The notes: generated by a model not told the origin, from the letters alone. DNA of 64,000 nt from Candidatus Kaiserbacteria bacterium (GCA_028286585.1 JAQBRI010000005.1:13973-77972), one strand, 5' to 3'. Shown: positions 30,281-51,586, counted from the stretch's first letter. Numbers and translations: made by a program.

Positions 30281-31162
30281 TTACATCACTCCTACAAAAT
30301 CTGCCGAGAGGACAAACCTCGCGGATTTACCCGTGAGTGTATCACAGGTAACGAGAGTGAGCTTTTTTCCGTGCGCGGTCGAAAGGTCGATGGTAGTGCC
30401 ATCGGTCGTACTCGCCTTTTCGACGCCCGTTACGCGGTAGAGATATTTTTTGCCGTTACTTCCCACGAGCGTAATAGAATCCCCTGCCTTGAGATCAGGA
30501 ATTTTGTTGAACGCTCGAAACATTTGATTGTGTACGATTGGAAGATGTGAACTGTGGGCAAAGAGAACCACATTACCATCCTCACCCAACTGTGCGGATG
30601 CACTATATCGAGCAGGGCCTGTCTGCAATAGCGCGTCAAGTGCATCGACATCACGTGTTGCAGGATTTTGTACCGGAAGATCGATCCCTACTGAATCAAT
30701 TATGATTCGAACTGGATTTGATCCTTGCACAGCGGCACCAACTTGTGCCGATGCAGGCTGAGCTGTTTGTGAGTTAACAGTTTGTGCGTTTGGAGTTTGT
30801 GATGACTGCCCGCTGGTTACAATGAGGCTTCCAACACCTGAGGTGGGAGCAGCGTCTGGAGAAACCGGTATAACAAGTGACTGATTACCAGCTGCATTGG
30901 TATTTGTATCCAAAGAATTTGTAGTATCGCCAAGCTGGGGCAAGTTTGAAAGTGCAACGTCGCGACCAGAATCAGAAGTTGTCATATCGGCAGTAATTGG
31001 AGTAGTACCATCAATATAATCAGGCACAAAACCAACCGAATCGGCTACAGAAAGCGTACAGAAAAAGACTACAATAGCTGTAGCTGCAAACACCAAAAAT
31101 GGGGGTTTTTGGGCAATTTCTGAGGATTGCGTAGGAAGATTATGTGGCGCGTGGCTGTTCAT
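30281..31162 (-). CDS. sortase family transpeptidase (class E/F-like), N-terminally membrane anchored
   Basis: The product has an N-terminal TM helix and a Ser/Thr/Gln-rich linker. The catalytic domain has the conserved His (VVLFAHSSH), the TLVTC active-site Cys, and a downstream Arg (KSARFVL). Confidence 0.8.
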   Translation of the reverse strand: MNSHAPHNLPTQSSEIAQKPPFLVFAATAIVVFFCTLSVADSVGFVPDYIDGTTPITADMTTSDSGRDVALSNLPQLGDTTNSLDTNTNAAGNQSLVIPVSPDAAPTSGVGSLIVTSGQSSQTPNAQTVNSQTAQPASAQVGAAVQGSNPVRIIIDSVGIDLPVQNPATRDVDALDALLQTGPARYSASAQLGEDGNVVLFAHSSHLPIVHNQMFRAFNKIPDLKAGDSITLVGSNGKKYLYRVTGVEKASTTDGTTIDLSTAHGKKLTLVTCDTLTGKSARFVLSADFVGVM

Positions 31163-31258
31163 ATAGGTTTCCTTATAAAGAACATACTACACCATATATG
31201 ACACTTTGTCAACCCTACCTACTTGACAATTACCTAGGATATGAGATAATAGCGCTAT

Positions 31259-32245
31259 ATGAATACACCAGTCATTGTGCACGACGAAGTACACGTAAAA
31301 AAGGAGCCGACGCTTCTTTCTAACGTTTTAGCAATTATCGGCTTTTTGATTATCCTCTTTATTATTGTTTGGGGCCTTTTGCATATCATTGCACTCATTC
31401 GAGGCACTGCTGATCCAATTTCCTTTGGAAACTGGAATCCTACAACCTCTTCTGGCCTTCAAATACAAGCGCCAACGGATGCTACTGCAGGAGCGGTCAT
31501 CACTATTGCTTGGACTTACAAGCCAACTGTATCTGGAACTTACACGTTTACGTATGCTTGTGCGGACGGCGCCGGCTTTCAAGCAGTAATCCCCCAGCAA
31601 TCAAACGTAGCACTTCCTTGTGCAACTGGAATCATCGCATCAACAACGAGTAACTCTGTTGCCGTAATGCCAACTCTTACCGGTTCCAATATTACTTCTG
31701 TCCCTATCACAATATCATTCACTCCTGTCGGCGGCGGTGCTGCTGTAACTGGAACTGCCACAATTGCGATTCATCCAGGCAATACAGTAACTCCTGTTGC
31801 GACATCAACTCCATCGGAAAATCCTACTCAAACACCAGCGACAACTACTCAGCCAACACAGCCACGATCTCCAGCAGATATTTCTGTAACCATCGTAGGC
31901 GTTGGTATTATTGATCCAGGAACTGGAGCATTCATTCCTGTAACCCCGGGCTCACTTGATGATACTGTGGCAGTAAAGTTTGATATCAAAAACATTGGCG
32001 GCACTCCAACAGGTGCGTACACCTTTGAAGCAGATCTTCCTACCATCAATGGATATCATTATGTTTCTCCTATACAAAAATCACTCGGTGCAGGAGATCA
32101 TGTGTTGAACACGCTTCGATTTACCCAGGTTGCCTCGGGTGGCGGAACATTCACCGTTGTTGCCGACCCAAACCAAACAGTTAACGAAGCAACGTTTTCA
32201 AACAACACAGCAAGTGTTGGTGTGAACGCTGGAAACTACCAATAA
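31259..32245 (+). CDS. membrane-anchored protein with C-terminal CARDB-like (cell-adhesion) domain
   Basis: The product has an N-terminal TM helix and a Thr/Pro-rich linker. The C-terminal 110 aa match the CARDB pattern (ADISVTIVGV...DIKNIGGTPTGAYTFEADL...VVADPNQTVNEATFSNN). The gene is divergent from the sortase gene. Confidence 0.55.
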   Translation: MNTPVIVHDEVHVKKEPTLLSNVLAIIGFLIILFIIVWGLLHIIALIRGTADPISFGNWNPTTSSGLQIQAPTDATAGAVITIAWTYKPTVSGTYTFTYACADGAGFQAVIPQQSNVALPCATGIIASTTSNSVAVMPTLTGSNITSVPITISFTPVGGGAAVTGTATIAIHPGNTVTPVATSTPSENPTQTPATTTQPTQPRSPADISVTIVGVGIIDPGTGAFIPVTPGSLDDTVAVKFDIKNIGGTPTGAYTFEADLPTINGYHYVSPIQKSLGAGDHVLNTLRFTQVASGGGTFTVVADPNQTVNEATFSNNTASVGVNAGNYQ

Positions 32246-32319
32246 ATTACAATCACGTAATTATAAAACACCCTCACAATTGTGAGGGTGTTTTATTTTA
32301 AAAATCGACTAACTAACGA

Positions 32320-34374
32320 CTAAATGTCGATAGTTGCTTCGCGGGCATGGCTCGTGATAAATGATTTACGAGCTGGGACGTCGGTACCCATAAGCATGTC
32401 AAAGACATGGTCAGCATCAACAGCATCTTCGACAGTTACCTGCTTAAGGATGCGTCGTGCAGGATCCATCGTAGTTTCCCACAATTCTTCTGCGTTCATT
32501 TCTCCAAGACCCTTGTACCGCTGTACCGAAATCTTTGCAACTCGTTTGGTCACCGCGTTCGGTGTTACTTCTTCATTTTCGTCTGTTGGATCTTCTTCGG
32601 TTTGTCCTTCTTCTTCGATCGGTAAATCAGCACCTACCAATGCAATGCGCTCAGCGTCTGAGAAAGCATAGTTAACCTGTTTGCCCTGCTTAATCTTAAA
32701 GAGTGGTGGTTGTGCAATGTACAAATACCCGCCGTCGATGATCGCACGGAAATGTCTGTAATAGAGTGTGAGCAACAGTGTACGAATGTGTGCTCCGTCA
32801 ACATCGGCATCGGTTGCAATGATGAGTTTGTGATATCGAAGTTTTTCAATATTAAACATGTCTCCAATACCCGAACCCATAGCAACCACAAGGTTGGTGA
32901 TCTGTTCAGATCCAAGCATCTTGTCCAATCGTGCACGCTCGATGTTCAAAATTTTACCGCGCAATGGCAATATCGCCTGCGTGCGGCGGTCACGTCCGGT
33001 TTTTGCTGTTCCACCAGCTGAGTCTCCCTCCACAATAAAGAGTTCTGATTCTGCGGCACTTTTTGTTTGGCAGTCGGCAAGCTTGCCCGGCAATGTCATA
33101 CCATCAAGTGCACCTTTTCGCATGATAGAATCCTTGGCTGCCTTTGCTGCCTTACGTGCCTTCATCGCAAGCGTCGCCTTTCCTAAGATTGCACGAGCGT
33201 CATCAGGATGCTCTTCGAGGAACATACTGAACGCTTCTCCAAATACATTTTCTGTTGCGCCACGCGCTTCGACACTTCCAAGCTTGCCTTTGGTTTGTCC
33301 TTCAAACTGTACTTCACGCATTTTGACCGACACAACCGCAGTCAAGCCTTCGAGTACATCGTCTCCTGTAAAACTGTCACCTTCTTTGCCTTGTCCGCTT
33401 TTTGCAGCATTGTTAAGCGTACGCGTGAGGGCGGTTTTAAATCCAGTTATATGCATGCCGCCTTCAGCGGTATAAATATTGTTTGCAAACGCAGAAATGC
33501 GCGACGTAATATCATCGACGTATTGCAGTGCAATTTCGACTTGTACGCCGTCAACTTCCTTTTCTACATAAAAAACGTTTCTGTGCACACTGTCCAAATG
33601 GCGGTTCTGAAATCCAACGAGTGACTTAAGTCCCCCTTCAAAGTAAAACGTAACCGATGGCACATCTGCACCAAGTTCTCGGAGATAATATACTTCTTCA
33701 TCGCGAACTTTATCAAACTCACGAAAATCCATAATAGCGATTCGCAATCCCTTTACCAAGTATGCCTGCTGTCGCAAGTGCGCAACAATGCGCTCAAAAC
33801 TAAACTCAATTGTTGGAAAGATTGTTGGATCAGCCTCAAAAGTTGTAATTGTTCCGTGCAGTTTTGATTTACCAACTTGTTTGATTTTGCTGACTGGTTT
33901 ACCACCATCTTTGTATTCTTGTACGTACTGCCCGCCATCGCGATGCACTTCGGCGCGAACAGTTGTCGAAAGTGCGTTTACAACGGAAGCTCCCACGCCA
34001 TGCAAACCGCCGGAGACCTTGTAGCCTTCGCCGCCAAACTTACCTCCCGCGTGCAAAATAGTCATAACAGTCTCAAGGGTCGAGACTTTTGTCTTTGGGT
34101 GAACATCAACAGGAATACCGCGGCCATTGTCTGCCACTCGAATACGATTACCTGGAAGCAGTGCTACTTCGATATCATCACAATAGCCACCCATCGCTTC
34201 GTCACGTGAGTTATCAAAAATTTCCCATACCAAATGGTGCAAACCATCGACACCAGTGGTGCCGATGTACATACCTGGTCGGCGTCGTACGGCTTCAAGA
34301 CCCTCGAGAACTGTAATGTCCGAAGCTTCGTATGCGCCCTCTTTTCGCGTCTTTTTTTCTTCTTTTACAGCCAT
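32320..34374 (-). CDS. gyrB: DNA gyrase subunit B (or topoisomerase IV ParE; no adjacent gyrA)
   Basis: The GHKL ATPase N-terminus is LEGLEAVRRRPGMYIGTTGVDGLHHLVWEIFDNSRDE. Toprim motifs are present (EGDSAGG, PLRGKILN). The product is 684 aa. Confidence 0.9.
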   Translation of the reverse strand: MAVKEEKKTRKEGAYEASDITVLEGLEAVRRRPGMYIGTTGVDGLHHLVWEIFDNSRDEAMGGYCDDIEVALLPGNRIRVADNGRGIPVDVHPKTKVSTLETVMTILHAGGKFGGEGYKVSGGLHGVGASVVNALSTTVRAEVHRDGGQYVQEYKDGGKPVSKIKQVGKSKLHGTITTFEADPTIFPTIEFSFERIVAHLRQQAYLVKGLRIAIMDFREFDKVRDEEVYYLRELGADVPSVTFYFEGGLKSLVGFQNRHLDSVHRNVFYVEKEVDGVQVEIALQYVDDITSRISAFANNIYTAEGGMHITGFKTALTRTLNNAAKSGQGKEGDSFTGDDVLEGLTAVVSVKMREVQFEGQTKGKLGSVEARGATENVFGEAFSMFLEEHPDDARAILGKATLAMKARKAAKAAKDSIMRKGALDGMTLPGKLADCQTKSAAESELFIVEGDSAGGTAKTGRDRRTQAILPLRGKILNIERARLDKMLGSEQITNLVVAMGSGIGDMFNIEKLRYHKLIIATDADVDGAHIRTLLLTLYYRHFRAIIDGGYLYIAQPPLFKIKQGKQVNYAFSDAERIALVGADLPIEEEGQTEEDPTDENEEVTPNAVTKRVAKISVQRYKGLGEMNAEELWETTMDPARRILKQVTVEDAVDADHVFDMLMGTDVPARKSFITSHAREATIDI

Positions 34375-39379: not shown

Positions 39380-40600
39380 ATGATTTGGCTTATATATGCA
39401 CTCTTTTTTGTCACACTATACTTTGAAGTATTCATGCTTTTGGCCTTTGTAACAACAAAAACAGACCATGATGAACCTGGAGGGCTCGAAAACATCACTT
39501 TTCCACGGGTTACCATTATCGTCCCCTGTTTCAACGAAGAGGCCACCCTCTCTGCAACTATGCACTCCTTGCTTGCCCTCAACTATCCCCACGAGATGCT
39601 CGACATTATTATCGTTAACGACGGTTCAAAAGATGGCACACTAACAGTCGCAAAAACATTTGAATCCGATCCGCGTGTCCGAGTTTTTGACAAGCCAAAC
39701 GGCGGCAAGCACACGGCGATGAATTTTGCTCTTCAACACACAAACAGTGAATTTATCGGCTGTCTTGATGCCGACTCAATCGTAGATCCCGAGGCACTGC
39801 GCGCTATCATTCCCGTTTTTGCAGATGATCGCGTTGCTGCTGTCACGCCGGGAATTCTCATTAAAAAACCCCAGACTCTGATCCAGCACATGCAAGATGC
39901 CGAATACCGGCTTAGTGTATTCAATCGTTTTACACTGGCAGCACTTGGTTCGGCATTTATTACTCCGGGACCATTTTCTATTTACCGCACCAGCATCGTT
40001 CGTGACATGAAAGGTTGGCGACACGGACATTCAACCGAGGATCTGGAGATGGCGCTCTGCATTCAGGATGCCGGCTACATAATCGCAAACGCACCGACTG
40101 CTGTAGTCTATACCGGTTCCCCCCGTACAGTACATGCCCTCTTTAAACAGCGCGTACGTTGGACCTATGGCTTTCTAAGAAATTCGATTGATTATCATTA
40201 CATGTTTGGCAACAAGAAGTACGGTAATTTGAGTATTATTATTTTACCTATGGCATTGCTGTCTATCTTTGCAGCAATTATTTTCTTTACACGTCTTATA
40301 TATCTACTGATTGGACAAATACTACACGCTTTTGCACGATGGCAAATTGTGGGCATTCAATTGCATGCACCCACATTTGATTTGTTTTATTTTAATACCA
40401 GCATGCTTATTGTTCTGGTATTGATAGCAATAGCATTAGTAATTGGACTCATTGCCGTTGGAACTGAGCTAGTAACCGGAAAAAGGCGAGTTCCTTTTGG
40501 TACTGCCTTTTTTGTTTTGTTGTATAGTTTTATTGTGCCATTATGGCTGGCCACTGCTGTCGTTCGCGCAGCGTTTAAAACTGGTGTACGATGGAGATAA
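39380..40600 (+). CDS. family 2 processive beta-glycosyltransferase (cellulose/chitin/hyaluronan synthase-like)
   Basis: The product has VTIIVPCFNEE, DIIIVNDGSKDGT, the DAD motif (GCLDADS), and QRVRWTYG (QxxRW). It has an N-terminal TM helix and C-terminal TM helices. Confidence 0.85.
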   Translation: MIWLIYALFFVTLYFEVFMLLAFVTTKTDHDEPGGLENITFPRVTIIVPCFNEEATLSATMHSLLALNYPHEMLDIIIVNDGSKDGTLTVAKTFESDPRVRVFDKPNGGKHTAMNFALQHTNSEFIGCLDADSIVDPEALRAIIPVFADDRVAAVTPGILIKKPQTLIQHMQDAEYRLSVFNRFTLAALGSAFITPGPFSIYRTSIVRDMKGWRHGHSTEDLEMALCIQDAGYIIANAPTAVVYTGSPRTVHALFKQRVRWTYGFLRNSIDYHYMFGNKKYGNLSIIILPMALLSIFAAIIFFTRLIYLLIGQILHAFARWQIVGIQLHAPTFDLFYFNTSMLIVLVLIAIALVIGLIAVGTELVTGKRRVPFGTAFFVLLYSFIVPLWLATAVVRAAFKTGVRWR

Positions 40601-46967: not shown

Positions 46968-47858
46968 TTACTTACCGGAGAAAAGACGTAGATATTTTTC
47001 GGTCATTGCCTGTACTCCAGCAACGCCTCCTGCCAAGAATTTGTATGGTGCTATTTCGTCGATATTTGCGACAAGTGCTTCTTCTATCCCCTTGCGATAC
47101 GCAACGCGGATGTCAGTATTGATGTGCACAATCGAGCATCCTGCAGGACCTGCGGCTCCTAAGTCGGAATCAGACGAACCCGATCCGCCATGTAATACCA
47201 ATGGAATATTAATTGCATCTCGTATTGCAGTGATGCGAGCAAGATCAATCTTGGGCTCCCCTCCTCCCTTAAGACGTCCGTGCATCGTGCCCACAGCAGG
47301 CGCGAGCAAATCAACTCCGGTTTCGGTAACAAAATGTACAGCCTCTTCTACCGTTGTGAGATTTGCATCCATATCTTCTGGTGGTGCATCGAGTAATTTA
47401 CTCGAAGTGCCGATGCGTCCAATTTCTGCCTCGACAATGATATCGCGGCCAGAGGCCCGGGCATACGCAACTATTTCTTTTGTGTTTGCAATATTCTCAT
47501 CCATAGGCAAATGACTGCCGTCAAAAATAACCGCATCATATCCGGCATCAATAACTGATTTTACTCCTTCAACTGAGTATGTGTGATCGGCGTTAAGGTA
47601 TACCTGTAGCCCGGCTTCGCGCGCAACTCGCACCAGCGCTGCAAGATTTTTTTCACCAATAAATTTGCGCTCACCTTCTGAGGCACCAATAATTACTGGA
47701 ACTCCAACAGCCTGCGCTGCTGCAATAACCGCATTGCTTTGATTGGAGTCTGAAACATTAAAGTGTCCAATCGCATACTTGCCTTCTCGCGCTTGTGTAA
47801 TTGCTTCTCGTAGTGTTTGCATATGCAAATATAGTAACACACAAACACAAACCGCCAC
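46968..47858 (-). CDS. fba: class II fructose-bisphosphate aldolase (FBA/tagatose-bisphosphate aldolase family)
   Basis: The product has the MQTLREAITQAREGKYAIGHFNV motif. The Zn ligands and motifs are present (HGGSGSSDSD, NADHT, VHINTD). The likely start is MQTLREAI at nt 47822. Confidence 0.85.
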   Translation of the reverse strand: MAVCVCVLLYLHMQTLREAITQAREGKYAIGHFNVSDSNQSNAVIAAAQAVGVPVIIGASEGERKFIGEKNLAALVRVAREAGLQVYLNADHTYSVEGVKSVIDAGYDAVIFDGSHLPMDENIANTKEIVAYARASGRDIIVEAEIGRIGTSSKLLDAPPEDMDANLTTVEEAVHFVTETGVDLLAPAVGTMHGRLKGGGEPKIDLARITAIRDAINIPLVLHGGSGSSDSDLGAAGPAGCSIVHINTDIRVAYRKGIEEALVANIDEIAPYKFLAGGVAGVQAMTEKYLRLFSGK

Positions 47859-47877
47859 TTGTGGTGGCGGTTTGTGT
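47845..47877 (-). terminator. rho-independent terminator of the repeat-protein gene
   Basis: The hairpin is acacaaaccgccac-ttgt-ggtggcggtttgtgt (14-bp stem). It is followed on the minus strand by ttgtgtgttact. It lies between the surface-protein stop and the fba start. Confidence 0.55.
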
Positions 47878-47934: not shown

Positions 47935-49599
47935 TTATGAACGATTGATCACAAGTCGTGGTACCCCACCGACTGTTTCCATGGTCATTGAGTCACCTTT
48001 TTGAGTAACCGCTACTGGTGTAGCTACTACTGTTGGTGCAACAACTGGCTGTACAGGAGTTGTAATAGCCTTTGCTACAAAGTTAACTGGCTTTACCGGC
48101 TTGTATCCCTTGATAGCTTGCGTTGCGAGTCGAGCAGCGCCACCGTTCATATACACGATAAGGTATGCGCCAGAGACAGCAAAGAGTCCGAGAGCAAACC
48201 AGTAGATTGAATTTCCAAGAACTCCGAAATCAAAACCGGTATAAGGGATTTGAGAGAGTGAAATTGCTGCAACATTGTTTCCAACATTGATGTTCACACT
48301 ACAATTTGAAGTTTGTCCGTTCGAGCTAGTGATAGTAAGCACGTAGTTGGTTGAACTGTATGGATGCACGGTCAACGTACCTGTTGTGTTTACATTTCCA
48401 ACTCCCGAGAGTGAAGCGTAATTTGCTCCAGTTGCAGCCCACGCAAGTACTGTTGAATCACCACTACGAACTGATGTTCGAGTCGCACTGATGTAACAAG
48501 CAAATGCCTGATTGTTGATGTACTGCACTGGCTGTGAGTAGATCGGTGTAACAACGTTGTTGTTATTATTGTTATTGTTGATCACAACTGGGTTGTATGA
48601 ATTCGAGTTTTGGTACGAGTATCCTGGGTATGAAGTGTATACGATCGGTTGCGGGTAAGTATTTCCACGGCAGTTTGGATAGACACCAGTAAGACCCTGT
48701 TGCGCACATGTTGGTACCGGTTGTGGAGGGTATGAACAGTGTGGGTATGTTCCGATCATGCCTTGCTGCACACAGGTTGGAATTGGTTGCTGTGGGTAAG
48801 TAGGGTATGAGGGATATGAAGGAGTTCCAGGGTATGTTGGGTACGAAGGCGTTGAAGGTCGTGAAGGAGTACTTGGGTAACTCGGTGCGTATTGCACTGA
48901 TGATCCCTGTGCTATTGAGTAACCTTGTGAAGAGTAGCCCTGTGAACTTCCGTAACCGCTTGAGTAACTACTGCCATATGATGGAGAGTAGGAACTATCG
49001 TACGATGGTGAGTATGAGCTGTCGTATGACGGTGAGTAAGAAGAATCGTATGAAGCCGTATATGAAGAATCATATGATGGAGAATACGCAGAGTCGTACG
49101 ATGGACTGTATGCACTATCGTACTGAGGTGAATATGATGAGTCATATGATGGTGAGTACGCTGAATCATATTGTGGAGAATACGATGAATCGTATGATGG
49201 AGAATACGAACTATCGTAAAATGGTGAGTATGAGGAATCATACGACGGAGAGTATGAACTGTCGTAAAATGGTGAGTACGAAGAATCATAAGAAGGACTG
49301 TATGAAGAATCATACTGTGGAGAATATGAAGAGTCGTATGACGGACTGTATGATCCACCGTAACTTGGTGAATATGAGGAATCGTATCCCCCACTGTATG
49401 AGCCTGAGTAGTCAGACACATCACCACAACAACCCTCGTCAAATTGTGCATTTGCAATTACCGGCATTACTGATGTAACAACAGTAAAAGCTGCCACAAT
49501 GAATGCGATTCGTGAACTTTGTATAAAATTTGTCATATGATTTTTTTCTAATTCGCACGTAATAATTAACTGCTTACTAATTTTGAGGAGTAAAAACAA
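47935..49599 (-). CDS. cell-surface repeat protein, paralogue 1 (20 tandem DSSYSPSY repeats, Asn8 tract, Ig-like domain, C-terminal IPYTG–TM–basic tail)
   Basis: The product has a signal peptide (start probably MTNFIQ at nt 49536). It has perfect 24-nt periodicity across about 480 nt, then QGYSSQGYSIAQGSSVQYAP and a P/Y-rich linker. The shared C-terminus is LSQIPYTGFDFG + hydrophobic helix + YMNGG + basic residues. Confidence 0.6.
   Translation of the reverse strand: MFLLLKISKQLIITCELEKNHMTNFIQSSRIAFIVAAFTVVTSVMPVIANAQFDEGCCGDVSDYSGSYSGGYDSSYSPSYGGSYSPSYDSSYSPQYDSSYSPSYDSSYSPFYDSSYSPSYDSSYSPFYDSSYSPSYDSSYSPQYDSAYSPSYDSSYSPQYDSAYSPSYDSAYSPSYDSSYTASYDSSYSPSYDSSYSPSYDSSYSPSYGSSYSSGYGSSQGYSSQGYSIAQGSSVQYAPSYPSTPSRPSTPSYPTYPGTPSYPSYPTYPQQPIPTCVQQGMIGTYPHCSYPPQPVPTCAQQGLTGVYPNCRGNTYPQPIVYTSYPGYSYQNSNSYNPVVINNNNNNNNVVTPIYSQPVQYINNQAFACYISATRTSVRSGDSTVLAWAATGANYASLSGVGNVNTTGTLTVHPYSSTNYVLTITSSNGQTSNCSVNINVGNNVAAISLSQIPYTGFDFGVLGNSIYWFALGLFAVSGAYLIVYMNGGAARLATQAIKGYKPVKPVNFVAKAITTPVQPVVAPTVVATPVAVTQKGDSMTMETVGGVPRLVINRS
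48924..49410. repeat. coding tandem repeat array, about 20 copies of a 24-nt unit (encodes D-S-S-Y-S-P-S-Y with Q/F/A/G variants)
   Basis: Visible in the translation: YDSSYSPSYDSSYSPFYDSSYSPSYDSSYSPQYDSAYSPSY. The nucleotide units are imperfect (synonymous variation). Confidence 0.7.
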
Positions 49600-49705
49600 C
49601 TGTTGCTATTATATCAGATAACTGATCATTGTCAATAGGTGGAATAAAAGTATTTTGGCGTCGGCAACATTGGAGTTGCCGACGCACTTTTCTCATTTTT
49701 TTTGC

Positions 49706-50176
49706 TCAGTGAGCCGGTACCGAAGGGTGCCCGGGTCCCCCGCACGCCTCGACGCCCAAAAGGCACGCGAGTGCCGGTGAAGTGTTACCGCGGCCGGACA
49801 AAATCGGATTGATTTCCGAATCGCCTGTCAGCAGCACACTGTGTTCCGAACACAGATACACGTCGTCGGGTTTTCCGCCGCCATGCATCCAGTAGTTTTG
49901 CGGATAGCAAAACTGCCCTTGTGCCGATGGAATCGTCTTCGCGTCGCGTATGACTTCCTTGCCTTTTCGCGAAACGATGATTGTGACATTCGCACCGGCC
50001 GAAGGCAGGACGAAGTTCACGCACACCAGAGGTTTTGTGGTCGGACGAGGCGCGCGAGGCTTTGCATGCTTATACAGCATACAGAGTTCGTCGCAGTCTG
50101 CGGGCAAGCTGCGAGCTTCTACAGTAGCGGGAAGCCACAGCAGAAACATGCTAATGAGAAAGTAAAAGATCTTCAT
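49706..50176 (-). CDS. small secreted Cys-containing hypothetical protein (156 aa) in GC-rich island
   Basis: The product has a signal peptide (MKIFYFLISMFLLWLPATVEA) and 8 Cys. An AAGGAGGG RBS is present. Local GC is about 65–73%. Confidence 0.45.
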   Translation of the reverse strand: MKIFYFLISMFLLWLPATVEARSLPADCDELCMLYKHAKPRAPRPTTKPLVCVNFVLPSAGANVTIIVSRKGKEVIRDAKTIPSAQGQFCYPQNYWMHGGGKPDDVYLCSEHSVLLTGDSEINPILSGRGNTSPALACLLGVEACGGPGHPSVPAH

Positions 50177-50207
50177 GGCCCCCTCCTTGAGTTGTTCGCC
50201 GAATGGC

Positions 50208-50254
50208 GAATTCGTGAGTGCCTGGCTGACATCAATATCTTGATATCAATCAGG
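50208..50254 (-). promoter_or_regulatory. conserved 5' leader / operator-like element, copy 1
   Basis: GAATTCGTGAGTGCCTGGCTGacATCAAtatcTTGATatCAATCAGG lies 30–75 nt upstream of the start codon. It contains the inverted repeat ATCAA-N4-TTGAT and is about 80% identical to copy 2. Confidence 0.45.
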
Positions 50255-50335
50255 CAATTGCGAAAATAAAAAACTAAAAGTAGTGTGGCGGAAGGGTAAA
50301 GAATTTCTTCTTCAATGTTCCCTTCCGCCAATAGA

Positions 50336-50650
50336 TCAACGGGTCCCCGACATGCGAACCATGCCATCGTGACGACCCGCCGCGTCGCATCGGAAATTTG
50401 CGTCGGCCGGAGGAATTCCTCCGAACGGGCGTCCGTTTGTGTCGTAGAACACCGGTCTGGTATTCACGCCGAATTGCGTTCGCCGCTTGTTGGCCTGCTC
50501 GAAACAACGAACAATTCCAGCCTGCCATTGCGGATTTCCGCTCGTGAGAACGGGAGCCGAGATTGGCGGAAGCGCGAAACGTTTCGGTGCTTCTTGCGCA
50601 GAAACAACGGTCGAAGCAATGATGAATGCGGTGACGAAGAACAATTTCAT
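50336..50650 (-). CDS. small secreted hypothetical protein (104 aa) in GC-rich island
   Basis: The product has a signal peptide (MKLFFVTAFIIASTVVSAQEA). The gene has its own hairpin terminator (GGCGGAAGG…CCTTCCGCC at 50274–50320) and a leader element like that of the neighbouring gene. Confidence 0.45.
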   Translation of the reverse strand: MKLFFVTAFIIASTVVSAQEAPKRFALPPISAPVLTSGNPQWQAGIVRCFEQANKRRTQFGVNTRPVFYDTNGRPFGGIPPADANFRCDAAGRHDGMVRMSGTR

Positions 50651-50683
50651 GGCCTTCTCCTGTGGTTGCCTGTCTTGACGACA

Positions 50684-50730
50684 GAATTCGTGAGTGCCTG
50701 GCTGGTATCAAATAATTGATAACAATCAGG
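50684..50730 (-). promoter_or_regulatory. conserved 5' leader / operator-like element, copy 2
   Basis: GAATTCGTGAGTGCCTGGCTGgtATCAAataaTTGATaaCAATCAGG lies upstream of the 50336..50650 gene. Confidence 0.45.
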
Positions 50731-50792
50731 TACTAATGAAAAAGTATTGGCGGAAGGAGCATGATGAATCATGTTTCCTTCCGCCGAATTGA

Positions 50793-51344
50793 TCAGATCG
50801 CGCCAGATTCGGTAAAGCGCGCGTCGAAGTGGCAACGGGACAACGAGTTCATGTCGCCGGAAACTTCCGGCCTGACCTCGGTGCGATGCCATTCTGCGCG
50901 CTTGGCCGCCTGCTCCTCGCACCTGTTCTTGAATTCGCCGAACTTCGACGCGTTCTGATTCTGCGACGCCTCCGGAGTTGGCGAGCGACCTTGCGGGCCG
51001 CCGCGATCCGAGAAGCCGAGATTCGGCTGACGTTCGACGCTCGCGGAAAATTCGCGCTCATCGATCATCGGTTGCTGCGCGTCGTGCGACGAACCAAAGA
51101 TGCGACCGCGGCCACGACCGCTGTGGAGCGCGACAAGCGCCCGCAGTTTCGCCGCGGACATCCTCGGAACTCGCGAACCTTTCGGTTGGCAACGTTCGTC
51201 GATGCCCATATAGTCGCCGCGATGCTGACCGCACGGATTGCCGGCAGCCTCGGCGTTCGTCGCGGTGATCGGTGCCGAGGCGACCGAACCAACGAGAGCG
51301 AGGGCGAAAGCAGACGCAAAGGCGAAAGATGCAATCTTGATCAT
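50793..51344 (-). CDS. secreted hypothetical protein (183 aa), Arg/Gly-rich, in GC-rich island
   Basis: The product has a signal peptide (MIKIASFAFASAFALALVGSVASA). The terminator hairpin GGCGGAAGG…CCTTCCGCC at 50747–50790 lies downstream. Confidence 0.4.
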   Translation of the reverse strand: MIKIASFAFASAFALALVGSVASAPITATNAEAAGNPCGQHRGDYMGIDERCQPKGSRVPRMSAAKLRALVALHSGRGRGRIFGSSHDAQQPMIDEREFSASVERQPNLGFSDRGGPQGRSPTPEASQNQNASKFGEFKNRCEEQAAKRAEWHRTEVRPEVSGDMNSLSRCHFDARFTESGAI

Positions 51345-51535
51345 GTGTAAAAGACCTCCGTTGTGCCTGTTCGGGTGAACTAGGCTTGGGTTCTAGAGAG
51401 ATGAATATCTCCCCAGCTAGTACAATGATAGCATGCAAGAGCCGTTTTGTCAAGCCCCTGTACCATCGCACCTAAAATAGGTGTACCACACTATAAACAC
51501 AAAAACCACCCCTTTCGAGATGGTTTTTGCTGACC

Positions 51536-51577
51536 TTATTTTGGAGTCTTTGAGTGCTGGACCACGTTTGACGTGGG
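51536..51577. repeat. conserved 3'-flank element copy 2 (ttattttggag…CCACGTTTGACGTGG hairpin)
   Basis: See copy 1. A further weak hairpin plus a tttgtgttt tract follows, as in paralogue 1. Confidence 0.55.
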
Positions 51578-51586
51578 GCGGCGGCT

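What the first reader, a model, noticed from the sequence alone, without database searches (positions are those of the whole stretch)
48924..49410. About 20 tandem copies of an 8-residue DSSYSPSY unit (24-nt periodicity) resembling the RNA polymerase II CTD heptad
Translation of paralogue 1 gives YDSSYSPSYDSSYSPFYDSSYSPSYDSSYSPQYD… with strict 8-aa spacing. Tyr, Ser and Pro occupy fixed positions and only the fifth residue varies (S/Q/F/A/G). YSPSY with Ser-Pro is reminiscent of the eukaryotic Pol II CTD heptad YSPTSPS. In a secreted bacterial protein such arrays are candidate O-glycosylation or phosphorylation scaffolds or adhesive regions. The near-identical 24-nt DNA units also make the locus prone to repeat-number variation.
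Basis: seen in the sequence. Interest (0 to 1): 0.6.

Follow-up and report, generated by a model that had tools for sequence, protein, structure and literature searches.

The report
Tyrosine-rich repeat brush on CPR surface protein
The repeat is real: it is the outermost, probably floppy, tyrosine/serine/aspartate-rich stretch of a membrane- or wall-anchored surface protein of an ultra-small Kaiserbacteria (CPR) bacterium, one member of a very large unannotated protein family, and it has nothing to do with the RNA polymerase II tail.

Summary
The 8-residue/24-nt array exists on the minus strand: 17 canonical YDSSYSPx units (49386..48979) plus 3 degenerate ones (49410..48931). Two details are wrong. 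The variable positions are the 8th (S/Q/F) and 4th (S/A). The DNA units are not near-identical: 68% nt against 84% aa identity, no two units alike, synonymous sites saturated.

The gene (49536..47935) encodes a 533-aa hypothetical protein of a Candidatus Kaiserbacteria MAG. Its parts, in order:
- signal peptide
- Cys-Cys motif
- the array
- Pro/Tyr-rich low-complexity region
- Ig-like domain
- invariant IPYTG plus a membrane helix
- cytoplasmic tail

The Ig+anchor module matches 14,844 cluster representatives, and every genome relative retrieved was Patescibacteria. Pfam and NCBIfam do not cover it. Across the family the N-terminal arrays change unit and period (4-28 aa) even between proteins with about 90% identical anchors. 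Composition is kept: aromatic plus acidic, almost no Lys/Arg. AlphaFold2 gives no confident fold for the array.

Best reading: a surface-exposed, acidic, Tyr-studded disordered segment selected at the peptide level, probably for multivalent adhesion. The CTD likeness is superficial (no alignment, period 8 not 7, extracytoplasmic). Slippage-prone or artefact readings are unlikely. Glycosylation remains untested.

The parts
49608..49635 (-). Promoter-like site: TTGACA, 16 nt, TATAAT with TG extension, 12/12 match to the sigma-70 consensus, about 72 nt upstream of the ATG
   Evidence: This is a consensus match only. Five such sites were found in the region against 4.5 expected, but this is the only perfect one and it is correctly placed.
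47935..49536 (-). Coding sequence of the 533-aa surface protein (identical to NCBI 'hypothetical protein JWO50_200, Candidatus Kaiserbacteria bacterium'); stop codon TAA at 47935-47937
   Evidence: P0001, 100% identity; independent assembly
49447..49536 (-). Signal-peptide-like N-terminus, aa 1-30: MTNFIQSSR, then a hydrophobic core, then ANA|QF
   Evidence: Read directly from the sequence. AF2 predicts a helix at aa 6-21. The same layout is seen in about 50 homologues. SignalP was not available.
49426..49431 (-). Vicinal Cys-Cys (aa 36-37), just after the predicted cleavage site
   Evidence: CC recurs in 27 of 111 family members, and another 28 have CxnC.
48931..49410 (-). The octapeptide array: 20 units in register (aa 43-202). 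The 17 canonical YDSSYSPx units span 48979-49386. Composition over 160 aa: 68 Ser, 40 Tyr, 16 Asp, 16 Pro, no Lys or Arg.
48787..48930 (-). Post-array linker SQGYSIAQGSSVQYAP followed by a (P/T/S)YP-rich stretch (aa 203-250). Positions 48880-48945 are 60/66 nt identical to 52262-52327 in paralogue 2.
48667..48786 (-). Two 'P-x-P-T-C-x-Q-Q-G-x-x-G-x-Y-P-x-C' Cys-loop motifs (aa 251-290; Cys 255/267 and 277/289)
   Evidence: The same motif forms 18-aa arrays in other family members.
48511..48666 (-). Further low-complexity segment including an Asn8 run (aa 291-342)
   Evidence: AF2 pLDDT is about 32-44 here.
48277..48504 (-). Ig-like beta-sandwich domain bounded by Cys347 and Cys412 (aa 345-420)
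   Evidence: AF2 pLDDT is 94-98. Foldseek finds only weak, generic Ig/PKD/Rib/SoxYZ matches. The profile search shows the domain repeated up to 47 times in other proteins.
48235..48249 (-). IPYTG, a sortase-type (xPxTG) motif within LSQIPYTGFDFG
   Evidence: L427, P431, Y432, T433, G434 and G438 are invariant in 50 sequences.
48148..48225 (-). Transmembrane helix (aa 438-463)
   Evidence: AF2 predicts a helix at 438-463. Hydrophobic segment seen in the sequence.
47938..48147 (-). Cytoplasmic tail (aa 464-533). It is Lys/Arg-rich next to the membrane and ends in the conserved beta-hairpin ...DSMTMETVGGVPRLVINRS.
   Evidence: (strands 516-522 and 525-531, block-mean pLDDT 74-88)
47845..47877 (-). 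Terminator-like hairpin downstream of the stop codon
51587..52990 (-). Paralogue 2 (467 aa). Same family, unrelated arrays (GYDSGSFDTGYNT...; VIGQYDPSTGx), one Ig-like domain, then IPYTG, a membrane helix and a short basic tail.
   Evidence: (DUF2963, E 1.4e-6)
30281..31162 (-). Sortase gene, the candidate processing enzyme. Contains the TLVTC catalytic motif.
   Evidence: Pfam PF04203, E 1.7e-18. Sequence. Scores fall below every NCBIfam sortase-class cut-off.

Best explanation
The array is the N-terminal, cell-distal part of a Sec-exported, C-terminally anchored surface protein of a Candidatus Kaiserbacteria (CPR/Patescibacteria) bacterium.

Architecture, shown or directly read from sequence: signal peptide; Cys-Cys; 160 aa of YDSSYSPx octapeptides; about 150 aa of further Pro/Tyr/Asn/Gln-rich low complexity; one Cys-bounded Ig-like domain; an invariant IPYTG motif; a membrane helix; and a 70-aa cytoplasmic tail.

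Mechanism, inferred: the array is an intrinsically disordered or extended, Lys-free, net-acidic chain. It carries a tyrosine every fourth residue (40 Tyr, 16 Asp, 68 Ser in 160 aa). It projects tens of nanometres from the tiny cell. It acts as a multivalent 'sticker-and-spacer' segment, making many weak aromatic and hydrogen-bond contacts with a partner cell envelope, a glycan or another surface.

Function appears to depend on composition and spacing rather than on a fold. That would explain why the family keeps aromatic-plus-acidic, non-basic arrays while the unit sequence and period turn over quickly. Selection acts on the peptide: the codons are scrambled to near saturation, so the array is old or is kept non-repetitive at the DNA level. 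It is therefore not a recent expansion, a slippage hotspot or an assembly artefact.

Anchoring is by the membrane helix. It may also involve sortase cleavage at IPYTG and transfer to the wall; this step is inferred, not shown.
For: Identity and frame:
- 100% match to a Kaiserbacteria hypothetical protein, plus about 50 homologues sharing the same frame and architecture.

Export and topology:
- Signal-peptide-like N-terminus, a single C-terminal helix, and basic residues after it.

Disorder:
- With a 50-sequence alignment, AF2 gives pLDDT of about 40 and no secondary structure for aa 25-341, while the Ig domain reaches 94-98.
- The single-sequence run on the array gives mean pLDDT 49.
- That model has no structural neighbour at E<1.

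Peptide-level selection:
- aa identity 0.84 against nt identity 0.68.
- Identical-codon fraction 0.43 against 0.355 expected.
- pS 0.77.
- TCN and AGY Ser codons mixed at one repeat position.
- The same scrambling is seen in two independent YDSSYxPS arrays, P0004 and P0015.

Family pattern:
- In 50 homologues and about 85 genes from reference genomes, the arrays have periods of 4-28 aa. Typical values are aromatic 0.10-0.40, acidic 0.07-0.35 and basic about 0.
- P0031 and P0032 are about 90% identical in the Ig+anchor region but carry unrelated arrays.
- P0017 and P0023 have 99-100% identical flanks but different copy numbers.
- The two paralogues in this window share a 91%-identical 66-nt junction but have unrelated arrays.

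Family size and range:
- The Ig+anchor profile finds 14,844 cluster representatives at E<=1e-3 and 1,392 at E<=1e-30.
- All 78 loci retrieved from reference genomes whose records name a taxon are Patescibacteria.

Sortase link:
- IPYTG is invariant.
- Paralogue 2 has the classic motif, helix and short basic tail layout.
- A sortase is encoded at 30281-31162.
- A sortase orthologue lies within 8 kb upstream in about 48 of 78 loci, and directly adjacent in L076 and L082.

Precedents:
- More than half of CPR genomes encode a sortase (PMC6744442).
- A Gracilibacteria surface protein carries a peptide-conserved, nucleotide-diversified PTD repeat proposed to be adhesive (PMC6851277).

Expression:
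- A perfect consensus promoter and its own terminator suggest a strongly expressed single-gene unit.
Against: - No experiment or binding partner is known, so 'adhesion' rests on architecture and analogy.
- Disorder is inferred from low AF2 confidence, which is also what a poorly aligned repeat would give. The best single-sequence model shows regular 2-residue beta bridges every 8 residues at pLDDT 50-58, so a stacked form is not excluded.
- The sortase-family linkage sits inside a generally syntenic region (gyrB, aaRS and dnaE are also conserved). In this window the sortase lies 17 kb away on the other side, so the linkage is weak evidence.
- Most family members, including this one, have a long conserved cytoplasmic tail, which is atypical for sortase sorting signals.
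- Post-translational modification of Ser or Tyr could be the real point of the array.
Confidence: 0.6

Rival explanations
1. Modification scaffold. The Ser/Tyr-rich extracytoplasmic segment is mainly a substrate for O-glycosylation (on Ser/Thr or on Tyr) or for phosphorylation. The glycan or phosphate coat, not the peptide, provides protease protection, hydration or adhesion. This overlaps with the best explanation rather than excluding it.
For: Ser makes up 42% of the array, and it is extracytoplasmic and predicted to be disordered. Extracytoplasmic Ser/Thr-rich disordered regions of streptococcal membrane proteins are O-glycosylated, which protects them from proteolysis (PMC12041528). CPR genomes are reported to carry many glycosyltransferases (PMC5220378).
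Against: No protein O-glycosyltransferase, GtrB/PgtC2-like pair or kinase was identified among the 26 window ORFs scanned. The one GT2 (39380-40600) best matches general family-2 glycosyltransferase models, with only a sub-threshold chitin-synthase hit. Many family arrays are Gly/Asp/aromatic-rich and much poorer in Ser/Thr (for example GGVYADEADN and GYDLGYLDG). Ser/Thr content is therefore not the conserved property.
Confidence: 0.22
2. Folded repeat. The octapeptides, perhaps as 16-aa double units, stack into a beta-solenoid or superhelix with a tyrosine ladder. Analogues would be choline/cell-wall-binding repeats or ice-nucleation-protein repeats. The structure would bind a defined ligand or self-assemble.
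For: There is a weak 16-aa super-period. The single-sequence AF2 model shows beta bridges every 8 residues. The only two marginal Foldseek hits are beta-helices, at E 1.3 and 9.9. Some family arrays (DTGWYDTGSSYTP, GGSTGWITDGITY) and paralogue 2's VIGQYDPSTG (DUF2963) look like beta-hairpin repeats.
Against: pLDDT is only 40-58 and pTM 0.33-0.37. No structural match is significant. There is a Pro in every unit and no hydrophobic core residues other than Tyr. Unit length and sequence are not conserved across the family, which argues against a shared fold.
Confidence: 0.1
3. Contingency locus. The array changes length frequently by slipped-strand mispairing or recombination, giving population-level size or antigenic variation. 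This is the periscope-type or phase-variation reading offered by the first reader.
For: Copy number differs among homologues (5, about 12 and 17 units). P0017 and P0023 differ in copy number despite 99-100% identical flanks.
Against: In this gene no two units are identical. The longest exact repeat is 17 nt and synonymous sites are saturated. This is the opposite of the highly identical repeats that define periscope proteins (PMC9704523). Two assemblies give the same protein.
Confidence: 0.06
4. RNA polymerase II CTD mimic, or a eukaryote-like Ser-Pro kinase and CTD-reader docking platform.
For: Only the shared tetrapeptide YSP[S/T] and the Tyr/Ser/Pro richness.
Against: The period is 8, not 7. 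BLASTP against (YSPTSPS)x20 gives no alignment at E<=100. The phmmer search of PDB chain sequences returned only two chains at E<=10 (a designed protein and a gamma-hemolysin component), neither a polymerase. The array lies N-terminal in an exported protein of a bacterium, outside the membrane.
Confidence: 0.01
5. Artefact: an assembly collapse or expansion, or a non-coding repeat read in a spurious frame.
For: Short-read metagenome assemblies often mishandle repeats. Repeat-driven ORFs also appear in two other frames (48807-49478 on the plus strand, 48912-49457 on the minus strand).
Against: Every unit is distinguishable at the DNA level, so collapse is unlikely. An independent Logan assembly encodes the identical protein. 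The Tyr-rich frame runs continuously from a signal peptide to a conserved anchor shared by thousands of proteins.
Confidence: 0.02

Closest known systems
Gracilibacteria (BD1-5) hypervariable PTD-repeat surface protein (PMC6851277)
   Same: Both are CPR bacterial proteins predicted to be extracellular. Both carry a short tandem peptide repeat in a coil region whose amino-acid sequence is conserved while the codons are diversified. An adhesion role was proposed for the PTD protein.
   Different: The PTD unit is a 3-residue Pro-Thr-Asp repeat built from four main 9-mers with reduced codon diversity, and the protein has an N-terminal membrane anchor. Here the unit is an 8-residue Tyr/Ser/Asp/Pro repeat using near-random synonymous codons, with a C-terminal IPYTG+TM anchor and an Ig-like domain. 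There is no sequence relation.
Gram-positive LPXTG cell-wall-anchored proteins with low-complexity repeat regions (e.g. Ser-Asp-repeat proteins ClfA/Sdr; own knowledge)
   Same: Signal peptide, xPxTG motif, hydrophobic helix, basic residues, a genome-encoded sortase, an acidic Ser-rich repeat region and Ig-like domains.
   Different: In Sdr/Clf proteins the repeat is a wall-proximal stalk below a folded ligand-binding domain. Here the repeat is the distal N-terminal end and the Ig-like domain is proximal. The motif is IPYTG. Most members have a 70-100 aa conserved cytoplasmic tail. There is no homology, and sortase cleavage is untested.
Extracytoplasmic Ser/Thr-rich intrinsically disordered regions of streptococcal membrane proteins (PMC12041528)
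   Same: An extracytoplasmic, Ser-rich, disordered segment of a membrane-associated protein, and a plausible O-glycosylation substrate.
   Different: The streptococcal regions are non-repetitive tails on enzymes and chaperones. Here the segment is a strict tandem array with 25% Tyr and regular Asp. The glycosylation machinery was not identified.
Periscope proteins (PMC9704523)
   Same: A single-chain surface protein carrying a tandem repeat region whose copy number differs among relatives.
   Different: Periscope repeats are folded domains that are highly identical at the DNA level and vary by homologous recombination. These units are 8 aa long, predicted to be unfolded, and only 68% identical at the DNA level.
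RNA polymerase II CTD heptad YSPTSPS (own knowledge)
   Same: Tyr/Ser/Pro-rich tandem repeat, disordered, sharing YSP[S/T].
   Different: The CTD has period 7 against 8 here. It has no Asp, it is nuclear and C-terminal on Rpb1, and it is read by kinases and CTD-binding domains. No alignment was found.
Tyr-rich 'sticker-spacer' low-complexity domains and Ser/Tyr/Asp-rich bioadhesive or mineral-binding proteins (FUS-type [G/S]Y[G/S] domains, sandcastle-worm and mussel cement proteins, DSS-repeat phosphophoryn; own knowledge, analogy only)
   Same: Regularly spaced Tyr among Ser/Gly/Pro, DSS tripeptides, absence of a hydrophobic core, and multivalency.
   Different: These are eukaryotic and unrelated in sequence. 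Many of them depend on DOPA or phosphoserine chemistry, for which there is no evidence here.

Membership tests
RNA polymerase II CTD-type heptad repeat | 7-residue period with consensus YSPTSPS | tested here: not met
   The period is 8 aa/24 nt. BLASTP against (YSPTSPS)x20 gives no alignment at E<=100.
RNA polymerase II CTD-type heptad repeat | Located on the largest polymerase subunit, or at least intracellular and accessible to CTD kinases and readers | tested here: not met
   The array lies between a signal peptide and a C-terminal membrane anchor in a 533-aa protein with no polymerase domains. The PDB sequence search returned only two chains at E<=10, neither a polymerase.
Sortase substrates (cell-wall sorting signal) | N-terminal secretion signal | tested here: met
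   By sequence inspection: MTNFIQSSR, hydrophobic core, ANA|Q. No dedicated predictor was available.
Sortase substrates (cell-wall sorting signal) | LPXTG-like pentapeptide followed by a hydrophobic segment | tested here: met
   IPYTG, with P, T and G invariant in 50 sequences, is followed by a helix at 438-463.
Sortase substrates (cell-wall sorting signal) | Short positively charged tail at the extreme C-terminus | tested here: not met
   The tail is 70 aa long and ends in a conserved beta-hairpin. The feature is met by paralogue 2 (…GGITRFVPKRV*) and by P0028.
Sortase substrates (cell-wall sorting signal) | Cognate sortase encoded in the genome | tested here: met
   PF04203, E 1.7e-18, at 30281-31162 with a TLVTC motif. 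An orthologue lies within 8 kb upstream of family genes in about 48 of 78 loci. The surrounding region is broadly syntenic.
Sortase substrates (cell-wall sorting signal) | Cleavage between Thr and Gly and covalent attachment to peptidoglycan | not testable with these tools
   Requires biochemistry.
Periscope proteins | Tandem repeats highly identical at the DNA level | tested here: not met
   Mean nt identity is 0.68 and the maximum is 0.92. There are no identical units and pS is 0.77. Definition taken from PMC9704523.
Periscope proteins | Repeats are independently folding domains forming a rod | tested here: not met
   The units are 8 aa long, and AF2 pLDDT is about 40-58 with no confident structure.
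Glycosylated extracytoplasmic Ser/Thr-rich IDRs | Extracytoplasmic, Ser/Thr-rich and disordered | tested here: met
   68 Ser in 160 aa, low pLDDT, and topology inferred from the signal peptide and membrane helix.
Glycosylated extracytoplasmic Ser/Thr-rich IDRs | Dedicated glycosyltransferases (GtrB/PgtC2-type or Pgf-type) present, and glycan detected | not tested
   Only 64 kb of the genome is available, and only 26 of its ORFs were scanned. The GT2 at 39380-40600 best matches general family-2 glycosyltransferase models.
CPR 'Ig-like + IPYTG anchor' surface protein family (unnamed; defined here by profile A2) | Cys-bounded Ig-like domain, LSQIPYTGFDFG, membrane helix, tail ending PR[IL]V[IV]xR | tested here: met
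   The query seeds the profile. There are 29 invariant columns in 20 sequences and 14,844 representatives at E<=1e-3. Pfam and NCBIfam have no model for it.
CPR 'Ig-like + IPYTG anchor' surface protein family (unnamed; defined here by profile A2) | N-terminal aromatic-plus-acidic, non-basic short tandem array | tested here: met
   In the detected 148-aa array of this protein: aromatic 0.26, acidic 0.11, basic 0. The same pattern holds in about 45 of 50 homologues and in most genes from reference genomes.

The most novel reading that the evidence does not exclude
The N-terminal aromatic/acidic arrays may be the exchangeable specificity end of a CPR-wide, sortase-linked adhesin system. A conserved anchor and Ig stalk would present a rapidly replaceable low-complexity 'barcode' that decides which host cell envelope or surface an ultra-small episymbiont sticks to. 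Exchange would occur at conserved junctions, such as the 91%-identical 66-nt stretch shared by the two paralogues. The codons would be kept deliberately non-repetitive to stabilise each array. On this reading, host range in a large part of Patescibacteria would be written in these arrays.
Probability: 0.15. Interest if true: 0.7.

Novelty: new variant of a known kind. Interest (0 to 1): 0.4.

Why it matters
CPR/Patescibacteria are thought to live attached to other cells, but apart from type IV pili almost nothing is known about what they use to attach. This gene belongs to a very abundant surface-protein family: thousands of 50%-identity clusters, confined to Patescibacteria in the reference-genome sample, and absent from Pfam and NCBIfam. 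In most loci examined the gene sits at a conserved position, at the aaRS/dnaE end of a variable stretch whose other end is a sortase gene. The family's outermost part is a fast-evolving Tyr/Asp-rich repeat.

If the arrays mediate attachment, they give a concrete, testable handle on partner specificity. They would also be a clean natural example of a low-complexity region under composition-level rather than sequence-level selection.

Taken alone, the finding as written is ordinary: one more repetitive surface protein. Its eye-catching CTD analogy is wrong.

Tried and rejected
- Pfam and NCBIfam scans of the protein and 25 other window ORFs gave nothing for the target. DUF2963 appeared only for paralogue 2.
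- Neither library covers the Ig-like domain, even in multi-copy relatives.
- A PDB sequence search with the array gave nothing below E = 0.12.
- BLASTP against a synthetic CTD gave no alignment.
- A homologue search with the array alone recovered only a family fragment (P0054) and one unrelated small peptide (P0055). The neighbourhood of P0055 was uninformative.
- Foldseek of the full model against the PDB gave only generic Ig-like matches at E of 1e-3 or weaker.
- Foldseek of the array model gave nothing.
- A JGI metagenome scan for close relatives, intended to compare repeat counts in the same lineage, found 600 pattern matches but no true relative. No close orthologue with the N-terminus exists among the 5.8 billion clusters; the best, P0002, is a C-terminal fragment. 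Copy-number variation of this particular gene therefore could not be assessed.
- Literature searches for IPYTG, for Kaiserbacteria surface repeats and for tyrosine-rich octapeptide repeats found nothing relevant.
- Sortase-family gene linkage was considered as functional evidence and down-weighted, because the whole region (gyrB, CARDB protein, aaRS, dnaE) is syntenic.
- The alternative-frame ORFs over the array (48807-49478 on the plus strand, 48912-49457 on the minus strand) were rejected as repeat-driven artefacts.
Full report
OBSERVATION

The region lies in a minus-strand ORF (47935..49599). The likely start is the ATG at 49536, giving a 533-aa product. In register, aa 43-202 (nt 49410..48931) form 20 consecutive 8-residue units. 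Seventeen are canonical: Y-D-S-S-Y-S-P-[S/Q/F], aa 51-186, nt 49386..48979. They are flanked by YSGSYSGG upstream and by YGSSYSSG and YGSSQGYS downstream. Tandem Repeats Finder reports period 24 and 15.7 copies, but only 68% matches.

Two details are not. First, the variable positions are the 8th (S/Q/F) and 4th (S/A), not 'the fifth'. Second, the DNA units are far from near-identical:
- Mean pairwise identity is 0.84 for protein but 0.68 for DNA.
- No two units are the same.
- The longest exact DNA repeat is 17 nt.
- Re-encoding the same peptide at random with the window's codon usage gives 0.617 nt identity and an identical-codon fraction of 0.355 +/- 0.024. The observed values are 0.68 and 0.43.
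- pS between units is 0.77, which is saturated.
- Serine positions mix TCN and AGY codons.

A faint two-unit (16 aa) super-period is visible. An independent Logan assembly of run SRR13312974 encodes the identical protein. Because every unit is distinguishable, assembly collapse or expansion is unlikely.

THE PROTEIN

The product is 100% identical to 'hypothetical protein JWO50_200 [Candidatus Kaiserbacteria bacterium]'. Pfam and NCBIfam give no hit. Reading the sequence together with an AlphaFold2 model built on a 50-sequence alignment gives this layout:
- Signal-peptide-like N-terminus (aa 1-30, ANA|Q).
- A vicinal Cys-Cys (aa 36-37).
- The octapeptide array (aa 43-202).
- A linker and a (S/T/P)YP-rich stretch (aa 203-250).
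- Two Cys-loop motifs, PxPTCxQQGxxGxYPxC (aa 251-290).
- More low complexity with an Asn8 run (aa 291-342).
- A Cys-bounded Ig-like beta-sandwich (aa 345-420, pLDDT 94-98).
- LSQIPYTGFDFG.
- A membrane helix (aa 438-463).
- A 70-aa tail that starts with Lys/Arg and ends in a conserved beta-hairpin (...PRLVINRS).

Residues 25-341 have pLDDT of about 40 and no secondary structure. The mature ectodomain (aa 31-430) contains 0 Lys, 4 Arg, 20 Asp, 63 Tyr, 100 Ser and 42 Pro. The Ig-like domain has only weak, generic structural neighbours: SoxYZ, Ig, Rib and PKD, at E of 1e-3 or weaker.

A 12/12 sigma-70 consensus promoter with a TG extension lies about 72 nt upstream. A hairpin follows the stop codon. 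This suggests an independently and strongly transcribed gene.

THE FAMILY

About 50 homologues share the C-terminal half: Ig-like domain, invariant L-x-x-x-P-Y-T-G-x-x-x-G, helix, and a tail ending PRIVIxR. A profile of that module finds 14,844 cluster representatives at E<=1e-3, 5,436 at E<=1e-10 and 1,392 at E<=1e-30 among 1.84 billion. The Ig-like domain is repeated up to 47 times in giant proteins. Neither Pfam nor NCBIfam models it.

A pattern scan of one genome per GTDB species returned 96 relatives. The 78 distinct loci kept that name a taxon are all Patescibacteria: Kaiserbacteria, Paceibacterota, Parcubacteria, Nomurabacteria and others.

The N-terminal regions are strikingly variable in sequence and constant in kind. 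Nearly every member has a short tandem array, with periods of 4-28 aa. Examples are YSPDTTSY, YDSSYTPS, YDSSYYPS, SEYVPSYD, GGVYADEADN, DYGYTGVAADTT, WYDGGYDEGS, GYDLGYLDG and LGYVDTYGSN. Aromatic residues typically make up 10-40%, Asp/Glu 7-35%, and Lys/Arg essentially 0%.

Turnover is fast:
- P0031 and P0032 are about 90% identical in the Ig and anchor regions but have unrelated arrays.
- P0003 and P0004 are about 80% identical in the signal peptide and anchor but carry different units.
- P0017 and P0023 have 99-100% identical flanks but different copy numbers.

Within this window, paralogue 2 (51587-52990) has entirely different arrays. It nevertheless shares a 66-nt post-array junction that is 91% identical at the DNA level. 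Two independent YDSSYxPS arrays, P0004 with 5 units and P0015 with about 12, are also scrambled at synonymous sites, with identical-codon fractions of 0.46 and 0.36. Codon scrambling is therefore a property of this repeat type, not an accident of this genome.

ANCHORING

IPYTG fits the xPxTG sortase pattern. Paralogue 2 and P0028 show the classic layout of motif, helix and short basic tail. A sortase with the TLVTC motif is encoded at 30281-31162 (Pfam E 1.7e-18). It scores below all NCBIfam class cut-offs.

In about 48 of 78 reference loci a sortase orthologue lies upstream on the same strand. The usual order is gyrB, CARDB protein, sortase, then a variable run of small lineage-specific genes, then 1-3 family genes, then aaRS and dnaE. 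In L076 and L082 the sortase is directly adjacent to the family gene. More than half of CPR genomes are reported to encode a sortase (PMC6744442).

Because the whole region is syntenic, this linkage is only suggestive. In the window the order is rearranged and the sortase is 17 kb away. The long conserved cytoplasmic tail of most members, including this one, is atypical for sorting signals. Sortase processing is therefore an inference, at roughly even odds. Membrane anchoring with the ectodomain outside is well supported.

HOW THE ARRAY MOST LIKELY WORKS

Shown:
- It is translated in the Tyr-rich frame.
- It sits at the distal N-terminal end of an exported, anchored protein.
- It is constrained at the peptide level while codons drift to saturation.
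- It has no confident predicted fold.
- The family conserves array composition, not array sequence.

Inferred: the array is an extended or disordered, acidic, Lys-free chain. Its 160 residues give a contour length of roughly 55-60 nm, within about 310 residues of low complexity. A Tyr sits every fourth residue. The chain would act as a multivalent sticker-and-spacer segment for weak, additive contacts with a partner cell envelope, a glycan or another surface.

The rapid replacement of arrays on conserved anchors is what one expects of an interaction surface under diversifying pressure. The closest documented precedent is the PTD-repeat surface protein of a Gracilibacterium. There too the peptide is conserved, the nucleotides are diversified and adhesion was proposed. 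Those authors also noted that nucleotide variants can suppress slipped-strand mispairing (PMC6851277).

RIVALS

(i) A modification scaffold. O-glycosylation of extracytoplasmic Ser/Thr-rich disordered regions is established in streptococci (PMC12041528). This is compatible with the data and not testable in 64 kb. However, many family arrays are poor in Ser/Thr, so Ser/Thr content is not the conserved property.

(ii) A folded beta-solenoid or ligand-binding superhelix. Hints are the 16-aa super-period and periodic beta bridges in a low-confidence single-sequence model. Confidence is poor, and no structural match exists.

(iii) A slippage-driven contingency locus. This is contradicted by the DNA divergence of the units. 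It also fails the periscope-protein definition of highly identical repeats (PMC9704523).

(iv) A Pol II CTD mimic. This is rejected: the period is 8 rather than 7, there is no alignment, and the location is extracytoplasmic.

(v) An artefact. This is rejected.

NOVELTY AND SCORE

Repetitive low-complexity regions on anchored bacterial surface proteins are a known kind. This one is a variant in several respects. The array is distal rather than stalk-like. It is Tyr/Asp-rich and Lys-free. It sits on an unannotated family that was confined to Patescibacteria in the reference-genome sample. That family has an IPYTG motif and an unusual conserved cytoplasmic tail.

I found no description of the family or motif in the searchable literature. 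The single finding is of moderate interest. The family-level pattern (exchangeable arrays on a conserved anchor, next to a sortase, in organisms whose attachment biology is largely unknown) is the part worth following up.

Noticed in passing
window 51587-52990 (-), and 48880-48945 vs 52262-52327: Paralogue 2 has unrelated arrays: GYDSGSFDTGYNT-type, then VIGQYDPSTGx, which matches Pfam DUF2963 at E 1.4e-6. It also has a classic short basic tail after the IPYTG motif and membrane helix. A 66-nt junction just after each array (SQGYSSQGYSIAQGSSVQYAP) is 60/66 nt identical between the two paralogues. This may be a gene-conversion or array-exchange boundary.
   Followed up: partly
window 49426-49431 (aa 36-37) and family-wide: A vicinal Cys-Cys motif lies a few residues after the predicted signal-peptide cleavage site. 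It recurs in 27 of 111 family members, usually as G-CC-G/D/S, and 28 more have CxnC. Its role is unknown; a disulfide, metal binding or a covalent link are possibilities.
   Followed up: partly
window 47938-48000 (aa ~513-533) and family-wide: The cytoplasmic tails end in a conserved TxDxM...G.PR[IL]V[IV]xR beta-hairpin (AF2 block-mean pLDDT 74-88 over aa 511-533). This is unexpected for a sorting signal and suggests an intracellular partner or a signalling role for the tail.
   Followed up: partly
window 48667-48786; L002 5482-6819, L047, L051, L061, L083: The Cys-loop unit (C-P-T-G-Y-T-G-T-Y-P-N-C...) is present twice here. In other family members it is expanded into 18-aa tandem arrays.
   Followed up: no
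window ~49700-55700: This stretch has higher GC (0.49-0.53, against about 0.45 elsewhere). It holds a run of small minus-strand ORFs with signal-peptide-like N-termini: 49706-50176, 50336-50650, 50793-51344, 53145-53660, 53833-54162, 54175-54606 and 54616-54849. None has a Pfam hit, and none has a homologue in the neighbourhoods of other family loci. ORFs 54175-54606 and 54616-54849 share an internal repeat. In other genomes the equivalent position, between the sortase and the family gene, is also filled with lineage-specific small genes.
   Followed up: partly
window 30281-34374 vs L005 and about 40 GTDB loci: The usual order is gyrB, CARDB protein, sortase, a variable island, family gene(s), then aaRS and dnaE. 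In this window the family genes lie between dnaE and gyrB on the other side of the sortase, with about 13 kb of housekeeping genes in between. This indicates a rearrangement in this lineage.
   Followed up: partly
window 9352-11955 (-): An 867-aa protein with a signal-peptide-like N-terminus carries a Peptidase_S74 (intramolecular chaperone of endosialidase/tail-fibre type) domain at E 1.1e-7. This is a fibre-like surface protein or a prophage remnant.
   Followed up: no
L084 2185-2637 (P0055, JGI 3300038443): An unrelated small ORF carries a double-glycine-leader-like N-terminus (…MSAVRGG), four YDSSYQP[ST] octapeptides and a Cys-Cys. It lies two genes upstream of an 829-aa Ser/Thr protein kinase gene. 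This is an independent occurrence of nearly the same octapeptide in another apparently exported peptide.
   Followed up: partly
window 48807-49478 (+) and 48912-49457 (-): Long ORFs in two other frames run across the array (223 and 181 aa). They are by-products of the stop-free repeat and should not be annotated as genes.
   Followed up: yes
window 39380-40600 (+): A membrane GT2 glycosyltransferase (Glyco_tranf_2_3, E 1e-33; weak, sub-threshold chitin-synthase similarity) lies about 9 kb from the gene. I read it as polysaccharide-synthase-like rather than a protein glycosyltransferase.
   Followed up: no
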